Below are positions 48,001 to 51,000 of a DNA stretch of 64,000 nucleotides, piece after piece. The stretch is from Mytilus edulis. Its lineage: Eukaryota. The stretch lies in NCBI RefSeq assembly GCF_963676685.1, contig NC_092353.1, positions 66,340,001 through 66,404,000 of the forward strand. Reading direction: 5' to 3'. The position numbers were made by a program. The stretch's first letter is position 1; the number at the start of each line of letters is the position of its first letter.

Positions 48001-51000
48001 GTCTCCATACCTTTCTGATTAAAAAAAATCTATCTTCATATTTAAGTGATACCAATTGTTGATGGTATAATTTTAATTTTAGAATTTTTATCAAAATCAA
48101 TACCCTGAATCACCTTGCTACCTTTGAGCAATTGATAAATTAGGTGTTATAAATTTGGAACATAACTCTGTTTCAAACCTATGTGAAAATACTAGAGAGA
48201 ACACTGAATATGACTAAACCTTTCTCGTCTAATGTGTTCATGGCAAGTTAAGGTTAAATGAGATTCCAATTTAATTTTAGAATATAATACTATGTTTTGG
48301 AATTTCATTTTCTATGAAAATGAATCTTTAAGTTTGTATATCACAGGTAAAAATATAACATTATGCCATACATTTTAAAATATAGGTCATTACAATGTAA
48401 AGATATTTAATATTTCACTATTATAGTCCTTTTTCAGAAACTCATTCCAGATTCATGTATTTTAATCTTAAACTAAAATTTGAAGCTAGTTATGCACTGA
48501 ACTAAACAAATATTCATACCAGTACACATTTAAACAAGAAAAAAAATTGTATTCCATAGTTATATCAAAATCAGATTCCGACTTTCAGAAGTGAGTTTCA
48601 AGAAAGCTCTATATATTTAAAACAACAGTAACATTTTCATAACAATATATCATATTACATTGTAATTAAAAATTCTCTGGTTATCAATTTGAACTTTCAT
48701 TTTTTTTCATTAAAACCGTACAACAATTTTTAAACATATTGTTTCTGCGTATTTAGAGATCATGCCTTTTTTTCAATCAGCCTAAAAATCAAAATCAAGT
48801 TTATCAACAAGCAAATTTGTTCAAATTTGTTAAAATTTTATAAACTTCTGTCATAAGGTTTATAATGTAGGCTTTATATGTGGTACTGGTTCTTTAGGGA
48901 GGGAATATTTTTTGTCAAATTCCTGGACTTCTTTTTCCGCCTGACTTTGTGTGAGGTGATCTAACGGTATTGGATGAATCTCTGGGTATCTTTCAGGATG
49001 ATGGTGAATTTCTTCTTCCACAACTTCAATATGATGTTTCTTCCTCTCTGATACTGGGGTAAAATAACTGAAGAATATTAAATATTTAAAAATATGATGG
49101 TTATGGACATATAATAACTGGAGGCTCTAAAGAATCTGTGTCGATCACATTGGTATATATGCATATTTAAAAAAGGACTTTTTCCAATATTGTAGATGGA
49201 TGAGAAAAGAGTAAATGACAAAAATCTCTGTTTTGTTTGTCTTTTATTGCAGATCATTTAGTGTGTTTAGTTTCTATCTTTTTTAGTTTTTGCTCAAAAC
49301 ACATAAGAGGGTCAAAAATATTTTGGGCAATCACTCTTATAAAGAGTGACGTCTTCTACTAGTAACTTTCTTGGCAAAATTTGGTGTGTTAGTAAATCTT
49401 GCCTTGCGGATCATTTTTGTGATTTAAAGTAGATATAGGAAGATGTGGTGTGAGTGCCAATGAGACAACTCTCCATCCAAATAACAATTTAAAAAAAAGT
49501 AAACCATTATAGGTCAAAGTGTCTATTTTACTATTTAAATTTTTATTATATATGGCAAAATTTTTTAAAAATTTGTAAGGGTTCTGTGGAACCCAGTGTC
49601 TTGACTACTTGAATCTAATAAAGGTTTTAAGAACTTTAACTGCAGACTGTATGTAATGTGAACTGGAAGAAAAATGAAGTCCTATAAGTATTTATATGTA
49701 ACATACAGAAAAACTGGAAATATATTTTTTACAAAATTTCCTTCAAGATACTAGCAGAAAAACCAAGTCCATTCATAAGTAAAAATACTTAGAATTTTTT
49801 TTTTACAAAATTTAGTCCTGGAGACTAAAATACACACTAAACAAAGCTACATATTATGGAGCCCATGTCCTGTTATTACAGTATATGGTATCTTTGATGA
49901 GTTTATTTACAACCACTGGGTCGATGCCACTGCTGGTGGAGATTTATTTCCCCAAGGGTATCACAAGCCCAGTAGTCAGCACATTTTGTGCTGACATGAA
50001 TTATCATTGATATTGTTATATTTATAAATTAACTGTTTACAAAATTTAGAATTTTTTGAAATACTAAGGCTTTTCTACCTCAGGCATAGATTACCTTAGC
50101 TGTATTTGGCAACACTTTTAGGATTTTTTTTGGATTCGAGCGTCACTGATGAGTCTTTTGTAGACGAAACGCGTGTCTGGCGTATATATAAAATTTAGTC
50201 CTGGTATCTTTGATGAGTTTATTTATTGATTGTTTCAGACTTTTAATAATTTGGATGATGTTTTTCATTGTTATAAATCAAATATGATATAAGCCAAATC
50301 GGTGAACATGAATTTGACAGCTAGTGCCCCTTTAACATTGACCAATCAAATTCTATGATGAACATTTTTTGGCAGTATTTTTTTTTGGTATCCCAGATTT
50401 CTGTTGTTCCTTTAATAGACATTTCAAAAAAAAACTAGGTTTTGCACCAGAAATGATGGCATATAGATAATGATATTGTATTTATCGACTAAGCACAGCA
50501 CAGCAAGACCCCTGATACAGGATGAGTGATGCTATCCTTAGTAGTTGTCAAAAAGACAGTAGAAATTCTATCTGACAGCAACAAATAGTTTTACACACAT
50601 ATCTGAACTGCTTTATTCCAAATAGGATGGAAACACCCATGAATATTAAATGAAACCTCTAAGTGTCACTTTTCCTTAAATATCCAGATAAACACTATAA
50701 CACACAATGTAAAATGTTAACTTACTGATAATGGATTACTCTTCCACCTTGCATCATTTGAGCGGAAAAGTTGGTTATATGACAGGCAAACAACAACATA
50801 TTACGAGGCTGTACTCTAATAGCAAATCTCATGAATAATGAGGAATAAATTGCAAGTGCTACAAAATAAATAGGCAAAAGTATTAAAAAATTATCAGTTA
50901 TACCGTGAAATCTCAAAACATACCTATAGCTATTCTTTAATTTTTGTGTCTTTTGTATAATTCGACATTTAGTATGACGTCTATTATCACTGAACTAGTA

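What the first reader, a model, noticed from the sequence alone, without database searches (positions are those of the whole stretch)
49886..50225. Terminally redundant retrozyme monomer inside the last MPC1 intron
Seen: a 316-bp unit bounded by an exact 24-bp repeat of its own sequence, with the hammerhead (50140-50183) internal, so the copy is circularly permuted relative to the cleavage site. It lacks roughly 40 nt present upstream of the core in copy 2. Inference: slightly more than one turn of reverse transcription around a circular (or tandem) RNA template. All three hammerheads are on + while the surrounding host genes are on -, as expected if sense self-cleaving inserts are purged, although n=3 is weak.
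Basis: partly seen in the sequence, partly recalled or inferred. Interest (0 to 1): 0.72.

Follow-up and report, generated by a model that had tools for sequence, protein, structure and literature searches.

The report
Partial-tandem hammerhead retroelement in mussel intron
A worn copy of a known kind of mussel jumping gene that carries a self-cutting RNA motif sits backwards in an intron of the MPC1 gene and repeats 24 bases of its own tail at its front end, which is an expected by-product of how such elements are copied.

Summary
The core observation holds. An exact 24-bp direct repeat (49886-49909, 50202-50225) bounds a 316-bp unit. The unit holds a complete type I hammerhead (50140-50183, + strand, predicted cut after 50177). 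It lies in the 1,658-bp last intron of a minus-strand MPC1-like gene of a Mytilus mussel.

The 24-mer is element sequence, not host target: copy 2 carries it (23 of 24) directly after its own hammerhead. One detail fails: copy 3 does keep the ~40 nt upstream stretch.

The three copies share only a ~130-bp ribozyme module. All three end within about 2 nt of each other, ~48-50 nt past the cut site. The 190-bp body of copy 3 is unique in the window. Start points are therefore not seen to permute.

The pattern fits Penelope-like reverse transcription from a fixed internal site over a template longer than one unit (concatemer or circle), giving a partial tandem. More element-like sequence lies 64 bp further upstream (49784-49822), so the 5' end is messier than described.

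Mussel retrozymes, their circular RNAs and the more-than-one-unit cDNA model are already published. This is a new member of a known kind: one ribozyme, antisense to the gene, one CpG-type change, most likely a dead-end copy. Genome-wide tests could not be run.

The parts
49886..49909 (+). 5' copy of the exact 24-bp repeat. It is the 3' tail of the element. Similarity to copy 2 runs 2 nt further, to 49911.
   Evidence: (24/24; 25/26 to 19500-19525); nhmmer module profile E 0.005
49910..50100 (+). 'Body' of the 316-bp unit. It is unique in the window, contains a perfect 8-bp hairpin near 49976-49996, and starts with an AC-rich stretch.
   Evidence: no blastn or nhmmer match elsewhere; Smith-Waterman scores against the flanks of copies 1 and 2 lie within the shuffle range; circular fold
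50101..50139 (+). Conserved stretch 5' of the ribozyme, shared with copies 1 and 2 (with indels)
   Evidence: (MAFFT and nhmmer)
50140..50183 (+). Type I hammerhead: helix I 6 bp, helix II 4 bp, helix III 2 bp with a 4-nt loop; predicted cut after C 50177
   Evidence: (RF00163 29.0 bits, E 0.005, cut-off 34), (12/12 pairs)
50184..50201 (+). First part of the post-ribozyme tail, conserved in copies 1 and 2
50202..50225 (+). 3' copy of the exact 24-bp repeat; end of the copy
50226..50241 (+). 3' flank that resembles the flank of copy 2 (10 of 16). ATT lies at +4..+6, as in all three copies. It is either a further piece of the element or a preferred target.
   Evidence: P 0.006 at fixed offset, about 0.03 after 5 offsets
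49784..49822 (+). Upstream element-like fragment. 49804-49821 matches 50187-50204 at 17 of 18. AT-rich motifs are shared with 50027-50057 and 50118-50131. A 64-bp spacer (49822-49885) separates it from the first repeat.
   Evidence: (0 of 3000 genomic controls reach the score); but nhmmer E 1.5
19398..19525 (+). Copy 2: ribozyme module only (hammerhead 19438-19481); 97% identical to copy 3 over 98 bp
8944..9064 (+). Copy 1: older module (hammerhead 8978-9021), ~78-81% identical to the others. 3 of 12 helix pairs are broken, all by CpG-to-CpA changes.
49068..50725 (-). Last intron of the MPC1-like gene (donor GTAAGT at 50725-50720, acceptor CAG at 49070-49068)
50726..50858 (-). Penultimate coding exon of the MPC1-like gene
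   Evidence: Pfam MPC, E 3.2e-12; 98% to the Mytilus trossulus MPC1-like protein
48860..49067 (-). Last coding exon of the MPC1-like gene, stop codon included
   Evidence: (67/73 identical to P0001)

Best explanation
Copy 3 is a non-autonomous, hammerhead-bearing retroelement of the mussel non-LTR retrozyme / Penelope-like (PLE) kind. It lies antisense in the last intron of an MPC1-like gene.

It is a partial head-to-tail tandem: one 316-bp unit preceded by the last 24-26 nt of the unit's own tail.

Most likely course of events:
1. A PLE-type reverse transcriptase began cDNA synthesis at a fixed internal site about 48-50 nt 3' of the ribozyme cut site.
2. The template continued past one unit. 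It was either an uncleaved multi-unit transcript or a circular monomer.
3. The enzyme ran about 1.08 units before the cDNA was joined to the target.

The ~130-bp module shared by all three copies (ribozyme plus ~40 nt on each side) would be the part needed in cis for recognition and initiation.

Shown: the anatomy, the shared 3' end, and the element origin of the repeat. Inferred: the enzyme, the start site and the nature of the template.

The locus has one ribozyme only and is antisense to its host gene. It therefore cannot itself release a unit-length RNA and is most likely a dead-end copy.
For: 1. **The repeat is real and belongs to the element.** Exact 24-bp repeat, 316 bp apart, 0 expected by chance. 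The same 24-mer follows the hammerhead of copy 2 at another locus (23/24).
2. **The ribozyme is complete.** Core intact, 12 of 12 helix pairs in copies 2 and 3. Helices of 6, 4 and 2 bp with a 4-nt loop in helix III (GCGC, palindromic, in copies 1 and 2; GCGU in copy 3). This is the 'canonical' metazoan type I architecture as defined in PMC4209133 (passages).
3. **Fixed 3' ends.** 3 of 3 copies end within about 2 nt of each other, ~48-50 nt 3' of the cut site. This excludes priming at the 3' end of a self-cleaved monomer and points to a fixed start.
4. **Precedent for a fixed internal start.** In vitro, a PLE reverse transcriptase starts at fixed internal sites in an AC-rich stem-loop some 85-92 nt 3' of its hammerhead cut site. 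It uses unprocessed multi-copy RNA and nicks at ATT in AT-rich DNA (PMC11167929, main text). Here the unit continues with an AC-rich stretch right after the end point. ATT lies at +4..+6 of the 3' flank in 3 of 3 copies.
5. **Partial tandems are typical of PLEs.** Partial tandems with a truncated upstream copy, and short 'tail' extensions, are hallmarks of PLE insertions (PMC8557442, passages).
6. **Host and unit size fit.** The host is Mytilus. M. galloprovincialis has ~5000 type I hammerheads in ~350-390-bp repeats expressed as circular RNA, and PLEs co-occur (PMC7229834, Results parts 1-2 and Discussion). The unit is 35.8% G+C.
7. **The circular fold is fairly stable.** The fold of the 316-nt unit (-76.9 kcal/mol) is lower than all but 4.1% of 637 window controls, and all but 5.3% of 131 GC-matched controls. 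Pseudo-units built upstream of copies 1 and 2 are unremarkable.
Against: - **The body is not shown to be element sequence.** The 190-bp body has no second copy in the window. That it belongs to the element rests only on its place between the two repeats and on a weak folding signal (z about -1.6 to -2.0).
- **Shared 5' limit is awkward.** Copies 1 and 2 stop resembling each other and copy 3 at the same 5' point. This is unexpected for random 5' truncation of a 316-bp unit. It would suit a ~130-140-bp element better.
- **The 3' flanks may be element sequence.** The 3' flanks of copies 3 and 2 are alike (10/16). The sequence after the first repeat is not like them (4-5/16). If those flank bases belong to the element, the upstream repeat lacks the true 3' end, which a simple 316-nt circle or concatemer does not predict.
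- **Extra sequence upstream.** The element-like sequence at 49784-49822, with a 64-bp spacer, is not explained by a single clean run.
- **No flanking duplication.** No target-site duplication of 7 bp or more flanks any copy. A single 7-mer match involves a site inside the module.
- **No PLE coding sequence nearby.** None was found in the window among the ORFs sent. No RT or GIY-YIG on + within 3.5 kb upstream of copies 1 and 2. The RTs present look LINE-like.
- **Rfam.** Scores are below the gathering cut-off.
Confidence: 0.5

Rival explanations
1. Homing. An older, broken copy (remains at 49784-49821 and 49886-49909) was already in the intron. A new copy of the same family was inserted into its tail, as PLE endonucleases recognise their own tail or pLTR. 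The partial tandem reflects two events, not one long run.
For: - Element-like sequence lies upstream of the first repeat and is colinear with the tail. 0 of 3000 genomic controls reach its score. There are 29 word hits against a mean of 1.0 and a maximum of 10 in 59 controls.
- The upstream piece carries two large indels (no ribozyme, a 64-bp spacer). The 340-bp downstream copy has none.
- Excising 49910-50225 leaves a tail that runs straight into the flank resembling that of copy 2.
Against: - The two 24-mers are identical, and 17 of 18 bases match in the other piece. An age difference is therefore not visible.
- nhmmer gives the 49804-49822 piece only E 1.5.
- The shared motifs are AT-rich and also occur once more at 49719-49741.
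Confidence: 0.2
2. The mobile element is only the ~130-140-bp ribozyme module. The 190-bp 'body' is host DNA or an unrelated RNA picked up by template switching. The upstream 24-26 nt is an independent, extremely 5'-truncated copy or a second template jump.
For: - Homology among the three copies is limited to the module, with shared 5' and 3' limits.
- Copies 2 and 3 are 97% identical in the module, yet unrelated 5' of it.
- Consensus lengths down to 51 bp are reported for animal retrozyme families (preprint 10.64898/2026.07.22.740005, Results part 1).
- Most PLE insertions are 5'-truncated (same preprint, passage).
Against: - By my estimate from 3 copies per 64 kb, two independent insertions of one family within ~200 bp, in the same orientation, have a chance of roughly 0.01-0.03.
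- The upstream fragment stops 2 nt past the repeat. It lacks the flank bases that copies 2 and 3 share, so it does not look like a 3'-terminal truncated copy.
- The body folds somewhat better than background.
Confidence: 0.15
3. One reading: reverse transcription primed at an arbitrary point of a circular monomer, a little more than one turn. Genomic copies would then be circular permutations with scattered ends.
For: - The copy is permuted relative to the cut site and terminally redundant.
- Mussel retrozyme RNAs are mostly circular (PMC7229834).
- The published model predicts cDNAs longer than one unit from circles (PMC7761336, passages; PMC7229834 Discussion).
Against: - 3 of 3 copies share the 3' end within about 2 nt.
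- Only 1 of 3 copies shows any redundancy.
- For a PLE, unprocessed RNA was the dominant substrate in vitro and ribozyme mutants did not change insertion (PMC11167929).
Confidence: 0.1
4. DNA-level origin: a longer tandem array (dimer or more) collapsed by deletion or unequal crossing-over, leaving 1.08 units; or a local tandem duplication.
For: Retrozymes occur as arrays that expand by unequal crossover (preprint 10.64898/2026.07.22.740005, passage). The upstream fragment without a ribozyme could be the rest of a deleted unit.
Against: No body-like sequence lies upstream of 49784. TRF finds no 316-bp period. A deletion ending exactly 2 nt from the family's common 3' end would be a coincidence.
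Confidence: 0.05

Closest known systems
Non-LTR retrozymes of Mytilus galloprovincialis (Cervera & de la Pena 2020, PMC7229834; Results parts 1-2 and Discussion read)
   Same: - Same host genus.
- Type I hammerhead with a 2-bp helix III.
- Unit of a few hundred bp (316 against ~350-390).
- Low G+C.
- No coding capacity found.
- Fairly stable predicted circular fold.
   Different: - One ribozyme and 1.08 units here, against tandem repeats.
- I could not compare sequences, because the paper's supplementary figures with the mussel ribozymes and clones could not be opened.
- Expression and circularity are unknown for this family.
Penelope-like elements: partial tandems (pLTR), 'tail' extension, internal initiation of reverse transcription (PMC8557442 passages; PMC11167929 main text)
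   Same: - A hammerhead close to the 3'-terminal region that is kept in all copies.
- A fixed 3' end a few tens of nt past the cut site.
- A truncated upstream copy in head-to-tail order.
- An AT-rich target with ATT near the 3' junction.
- No poly(A).
   Different: - No RT or GIY-YIG ORF.
- The redundancy is only 24-26 nt, where a pLTR is hundreds of nt.
- The distance from cut site to end is ~48-50 nt, against 85-92 nt in the anole element.
- The ribozyme is the canonical type, not the minimal PLE variant (PMC4209133).
Monomeric ('solo') non-LTR retrozymes of vertebrates (Li, Clavereau & Pollet 2026 preprint, 10.64898/2026.07.22.740005; abstract, Results part 1, passages)
   Same: Dispersed single units, thought to be non-mobile offspring of active arrays. 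They are related to PLE terminal sequences and are found in introns less often than expected.
   Different: That work is on vertebrates. It does not report orientation relative to host genes: 0 occurrences of 'orientation' or 'antisense' in its text.
Plant LTR retrozymes (PMC4918200, search listing only; features as summarised in PMC7761336 passages)
   Same: A non-autonomous retroelement with hammerheads. The proposed route goes through circular RNA, with cDNAs longer than one unit.
   Different: Plant elements have type III hammerheads inside ~350-bp LTRs, a PBS, a PPT and 4-bp duplications. None of these is seen here.

Membership tests
Canonical metazoan type I hammerhead ribozyme | Conserved core (CUGANGA ... 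GAAA, cleavage triplet NUH) | tested here: met
   Exact pattern in 3 of 3 copies. GUC triplet in copies 2 and 3, AUC in copy 1.
Canonical metazoan type I hammerhead ribozyme | Helix I 6 bp open-ended, helix II 4 bp, helix III 1-2 bp with a small palindromic loop (PMC4209133) | tested here: met
   12 of 12 standard pairs in copies 2 and 3. Loop 3 is GCGC in copies 1 and 2 and GCGU in copy 3. Copy 1 has 9 of 12 pairs.
Canonical metazoan type I hammerhead ribozyme | Rfam RF00163 gathering score (34 bits) | tested here: not met
   32.5, 29.0 and 22.6 bits; 0 matches at gathering.
Canonical metazoan type I hammerhead ribozyme | Self-cleavage activity | not testable with these tools
   The nearest-neighbour MFE prefers another fold (-11.5 against -5.7 kcal/mol). 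This does not decide activity.
Animal non-LTR retrozyme | Tandem repeats of 150-450 bp, each unit with a type I hammerhead (at least two ribozymes for an active element) | tested here: not met
   One ribozyme and 1.08 units at this locus. TRF finds no 316-bp period. The locus is at most a monomer derivative.
Animal non-LTR retrozyme | G+C below 50%; no LTR, PBS or PPT; no coding capacity | tested here: met
   35.8% G+C. No tRNA-like sequence. The only repeat is the 24-mer. PBS and PPT were not searched for specifically.
Animal non-LTR retrozyme | Highly self-paired circular RNA | tested here: inconclusive
   Circular MFE is in the lowest 4.1% of 637 controls, 5.3% of 131 GC-matched controls, and 7.5% of 120 in a second sample.
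Animal non-LTR retrozyme | Expressed as linear and circular RNA of unit length | not testable with these tools
   No transcript data was at hand.
Non-autonomous derivative of a Penelope-like element | Partial head-to-tail tandem with a truncated upstream copy, and/or a 30-40-bp tail | tested here: met
   24-26-nt upstream copy of the tail. It is shorter than the quoted 30-40 bp.
Non-autonomous derivative of a Penelope-like element | Sequence similarity to the terminal region of an autonomous PLE of the same genome | not tested
   No mussel PLE sequence was available. There is no PLE ORF in the window among the ORFs scanned.
Non-autonomous derivative of a Penelope-like element | Fixed 3' ends set by internal initiation; AT-rich/ATT target | tested here: inconclusive
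   3 of 3 copies end within about 2 nt. ATT lies at +4..+6 in 3 of 3. But n = 3, and the flank bases may belong to the element.
tRNA-derived SINE | tRNA-like head | tested here: not met
   ARAGORN finds 0 genes in the window.
Plant-type LTR retrozyme | Type III hammerhead inside ~350-bp LTRs, 4-bp target duplication | tested here: not met
   The ribozyme is type I. The repeat is 24 bp and does not contain the ribozyme. No flanking duplication was found.

The most novel reading that the evidence does not exclude
The ~130-bp module with its fixed 3' end marks the site where a mussel Penelope-like reverse transcriptase starts on retrozyme RNA. Copy 3 would then be a fossil of one run of 1.08 units over a circular or concatemeric template. 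This would give sequence-level evidence for where and how animal retrozyme cDNA synthesis begins. It would tie retrozymes mechanistically to PLE internal initiation, not only by co-occurrence and phylogeny.
Probability: 0.3. Interest if true: 0.5.

Novelty: new member of a known kind. Interest (0 to 1): 0.3.

Why it matters
Taken alone, the locus adds one copy to a family type already described in mussels.

Its use is as a worked example. The ends of retrozyme copies can be read against the ribozyme cut site, and here they point to a fixed start about 48-50 nt downstream of it. A genome-wide survey of 3' and 5' ends in a Mytilus assembly could turn that into a direct test of two questions:
- whether Penelope-like enzymes mobilise animal retrozymes;
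- whether the template is a circle or a concatemer.

The antisense position in an intron also suggests a simple strand-bias test. I found no such test in print for animal retrozymes. One search returned 3 papers holding all four terms, none on animal retrozymes by title or abstract. The 2026 preprint has 0 mentions of orientation.

Tried and rejected
**Considered and rejected**
- Target-site duplication as the origin of the 24-mer. Rejected because the same 24-mer follows the ribozyme of copy 2 at another locus.
- tRNA-like SINE head: none found.

**Searches that found nothing**
- Flanking duplications for all three copies under several boundary choices. Nothing of 7 bp or more outside the element.
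- Similarity of the 190-bp body to the flanks of copies 1 and 2, and of those flanks to each other: 8 Smith-Waterman comparisons. Each observed score was reached by 47 to 279 of 300 shuffles.
- Profile and single-sequence nhmmer over the window for further copies. They found only the three modules, the solo tail (E 0.005) and noise.
- PLE coding remnants upstream of copies 1 and 2. Of the 76 + strand ORFs of 33 aa or more listed, I sent the 59 that lie upstream of copies 1 and 2. The 17 upstream of copy 3 were not sent. I added 5 ORFs of the - strand RT region. No RT or GIY-YIG turned up upstream of copies 1 and 2.
- Period-316 array by TRF: none.
- Literature search for four 15-letter strings of the ribozyme: 0 papers.
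- Host gene for copy 2: the ORF 19954-20355(-) has no homologue at E 0.001 or better.

**Uninformative**
- Thermodynamic folding of the ribozyme regions. The z-scores are positive or near zero, so it says nothing about the hammerhead.

**Could not be done**
- Supplementary files of PMC7229834 could not be opened.
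Full report
**What is in the sequence**

The window has no N and is 69% A+T. At 49886-49909 and 50202-50225 lies an exact 24-nt direct repeat, start-to-start 316 bp. Allowing 3 mismatches, the 24-mer has 3 matches in the window, and the shuffle mean is 0.00. The third match is at 19500-19523 with one mismatch.

Between the two repeats, at 50140-50183 on the + strand, is a hammerhead core. The pattern CTGATGAG, 3-30 nt, CGAAA occurs three times in the window, always on +, and in none of 100 shuffles.

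Rfam finds nothing at its gathering scores. In E-value mode it gives Hammerhead_1 (RF00163, cut-off 34 bits):
- 19438-19481: 32.5 bits, E 3.4e-4
- 50140-50183: 29.0 bits, E 0.005
- 8980-9021: 22.6 bits, E 0.67

Written as a type I hammerhead, copies 2 and 3 form 12 of 12 standard pairs. Helix I has 6 bp, helix II has 4 bp, and helix III has 2 bp with a 4-nt loop. This is the 'canonical' metazoan architecture as worded in Cervera and de la Pena 2014 (PMC4209133, passages).

Copy 1 forms 9 of 12 pairs. Its three broken pairs are all CpG-to-CpA changes. The one loop-3 difference of copy 3 is CpG-to-TpG. This is the decay expected of old, methylated, non-functional DNA (inference).

By the hammerhead consensus, the cut falls after C 50177. 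The two ends of copy 3 therefore lie 24 and 48 nt 3' of the cut site.

**Host and gene**

- ORF pieces at 50725-50994(-) and 52219-52401(-) match Pfam MPC (E 3.2e-12 and 3.8e-7).
- The first piece is 98% identical to 'mitochondrial pyruvate carrier 1-like [Mytilus trossulus]' (P0001).
- That protein continues with a C-terminal tail that is 67/73 identical to the ORF at 48863-49126(-).
- The penultimate exon ends at 50726 before a GTAAGT donor.
- The last exon starts at 49067 after a CAG acceptor. The split codon reads as in P0001.
- The last intron is therefore 49068-50725 (1,658 bp), and the finding lies inside it, antisense to the gene.

The exons were searched one by one. The joined protein was not built or searched, so continuity across the junction rests on the match to P0001. 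Nothing in the window looked human.

**What the three copies share**

| Comparison | Coordinates | Identity |
|---|---|---|
| Copy 3 vs copy 2 | 50126-50223 vs 19424-19521 | 96.9% over 98 bp |
| Copy 2 vs copy 1 | 19398-19512 vs 8941-9049 | 78.3% over 115 bp |
| Copy 3 vs copy 1 | 50126-50214 vs 8964-9049 | 80.9% over 89 bp |

These are blastn results.

- A local MAFFT alignment and nhmmer extend the match of copy 3 to 50101 (unit positions 216-316 against 19405-19499, E 1.7e-17). The stretch is there with small indels.
- 5' of that point the three loci are unrelated. In 8 Smith-Waterman comparisons of body and flanks, every observed score was reached by 47 to 279 of 300 shuffles.
- The 190 bp at 49910-50100 has no other copy in the window.
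- At the 3' side, all three copies stop resembling the unit of copy 3 within about 2 nt of each other. That point is ~48-50 nt past the cut site.

So the window shows a ~130-bp module with fixed limits, and one copy with a private 190-bp body.

**Origin of the repeat**

Copy 2 carries the 24-mer directly after its ribozyme at an unrelated locus. The repeat is therefore element sequence and not a target-site duplication.

No flanking duplication of 7 bp or more was found for any copy. No tRNA-like head is present. TRF sees no 316-bp period.

The copies run well past the cut site. They were therefore not copied from self-cleaved monomers primed at their 3' ends.

**A messier 5' end**

The 120 bp upstream of the first repeat resemble the module more than any of 3000 random 120-bp pieces of the window do. 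The score is 31 against a maximum of 27. With a long gap allowed it is 40.35 against a maximum of 32.1.

- The main piece is 49804-49821. It matches 17 of 18 bases of 50187-50204, the tail just 5' of the 24-mer.
- It is separated from the 24-mer by 64 bp of unrelated sequence.
- Word matches number 29 in the upstream 236 bp, against a mean of 1.0 and a maximum of 10 in 59 control segments.
- The motifs are AT-rich, and nhmmer gives this piece only E 1.5. I treat it as probable, not certain.
- It may be the rest of an older copy, a longer redundancy broken by an insertion, or a template-switch scar.

**Folding**

As a circle, the 316-nt unit folds to -76.9 kcal/mol.
- 4.1% of 637 window controls are as low, and 5.3% of 131 GC-matched controls.
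- In a second sample, 7.5% of 120 controls are as low.
- Pseudo-units of the same length ending at the tails of copies 2 and 1 are unremarkable (z -0.65 and -0.48).

This is weak support that the body belongs to a self-paired RNA.

Plain MFE folding of the ribozyme regions is not informative. A non-catalytic fold is more stable than the catalytic one in the nearest-neighbour model.

**Mechanism**

The published picture is as follows.
- M. galloprovincialis has ~5000 type I hammerheads in ~350-390-bp repeats, expressed mostly as circular RNA. The proposed route is reverse transcription of the circle into tandem cDNA by a Penelope-like element (PMC7229834: Results parts 1-2 and Discussion read).
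- PLE insertions are typically 5'-truncated partial tandems with an optional 30-40-bp tail (PMC8557442, passages).
- For an anole PLE, reverse transcription starts in vitro at fixed internal sites in an AC-rich stem-loop 111-118 nt into the ORF, with the hammerhead cut at +26. It uses unprocessed multi-copy RNA. The endonuclease prefers ATT in AT-rich DNA and can cut in the element's own pLTR (PMC11167929, main text read).

The window fits this picture in three ways.
- 3 of 3 copies have a fixed 3' end a few tens of nt past the cut site.
- The unit continues with an AC-rich stretch at that very point.
- ATT sits at +4..+6 of the 3' flank in 3 of 3 copies.

I therefore read copy 3 as a PLE-style partial tandem. 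Reverse transcription started at a fixed internal site and ran about 1.08 units over a template longer than one unit. The anatomy is shown. The enzyme, the start site and the template form are inferred.

**What speaks against it**

- The shared 5' limit of copies 1 and 2 is odd for random truncation of a 316-bp unit.
- The 3' flanks of copies 3 and 2 are alike (10 of 16; P 0.006 at a fixed offset, about 0.03 after allowing 5 offsets). Copies 2 and 1 share 8 of 16, which is not significant. The sequence after the first repeat is unlike all of them. If those bases are element and not preferred target, the upstream repeat lacks the true 3' end, and a simple circle or concatemer of 316 nt does not explain it.
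- This favours either insertion into the tail of an older copy or a module-only element.
- No PLE ORF is in the window. The RTs found are an APE+RT LINE at 28413-32290(+) and an RT fragment with a zf-RVT trace at 24579-26109(-).

**Strand argument**

All three ribozymes are on +. Only copy 3 is shown to be intronic and antisense.
- The ORF at 840-1838(-) is a near-full-length member of a Mytilus DZIP3-like HEPN family in one ORF. Copy 1, 7 kb away, is therefore not shown to be in a gene.
- The ORF at 19954-20355(-) near copy 2 has no homologue.
- The 2026 preprint on vertebrate retrozymes reports depletion from introns (abstract and Results part 1) but never mentions orientation.
- A search for retrozyme, intron, antisense and orientation gave 3 papers, none on animal retrozymes by title or abstract.

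**Verdict**

This is a real feature of a published kind, in the genus where that kind was characterised.
- The evidence here points to fixed ends rather than circular permutation. It cannot tell a circle from a concatemer or from a two-step insertion.
- With one ribozyme, antisense to its host gene and carrying one CpG-type change, the locus is most likely a dead-end copy. The preprint's Methods state that active retrozymes need two hammerheads (passage).

No eukaryotic genome, read set or supplementary sequence file could be consulted, so all genome-wide tests remain open.

Noticed in passing
window 28413-32290 (+): Apparently intact LINE-type coding region. A 349-aa ORF holds an Exo_endo_phos endonuclease (E 2.3e-11). 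It is followed by a 948-aa ORF with RVT_1 (E 6.2e-34) and zf-RVT.
   Followed up: no
window 24579-26109 (-): Broken reverse-transcriptase remnant. RVT_1 at 25546-26109 (E 7.3e-17) and a weak zf-RVT trace at 24579-24863. It looks LINE-like, not Penelope-like.
   Followed up: partly
window 21268-23642 (+): A 430-aa ORF with a CCHC zinc knuckle (gag-like), followed by a 338-aa ORF with no Pfam match. Probably another retroelement.
   Followed up: no
window 840-1838 (-): A 333-aa single ORF of a Mytilus-expanded DZIP3-like HEPN family. The best hit is 54% identical over 93% of the query, and some relatives are fused to STAND NTPase domains.
   Followed up: partly
window 10634-12129 (both strands): A run of long ORFs open on both strands. 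The - strand ones have repeated weak matches to Pfam ORF29-like (PF23698). This looks like a coding or satellite-like tandem repeat.
   Followed up: no
window 17167-17261: A long, near-perfect hairpin that draws sub-threshold miRNA-family matches (mir-2041 at 38.4 bits against a cut-off of 70; mir-7359 on both strands). More likely an inverted-repeat element than a miRNA gene.
   Followed up: no
window 19627-19749, 8058-8159 (-), 39039-39151: An unrelated interspersed repeat family (71-79% identity). One copy lies 100 bp 3' of hammerhead copy 2 and another lies 800 bp 5' of copy 1.
   Followed up: no
window 39291-39521 (-): An ORF piece with a weak match to the TSNAXIP1 N-terminal domain (E 1.8e-5, below the cut-off). 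Possibly an exon of a neighbouring - strand gene.
   Followed up: no
window 46176-46313 (-), 49389-49604 (-), 55828-55935 (-): Stop-free stretches that share a similar peptide run. This suggests another dispersed repeat, with one copy inside the same MPC1 intron, ~300 bp 5' (on +) of the finding.
   Followed up: no
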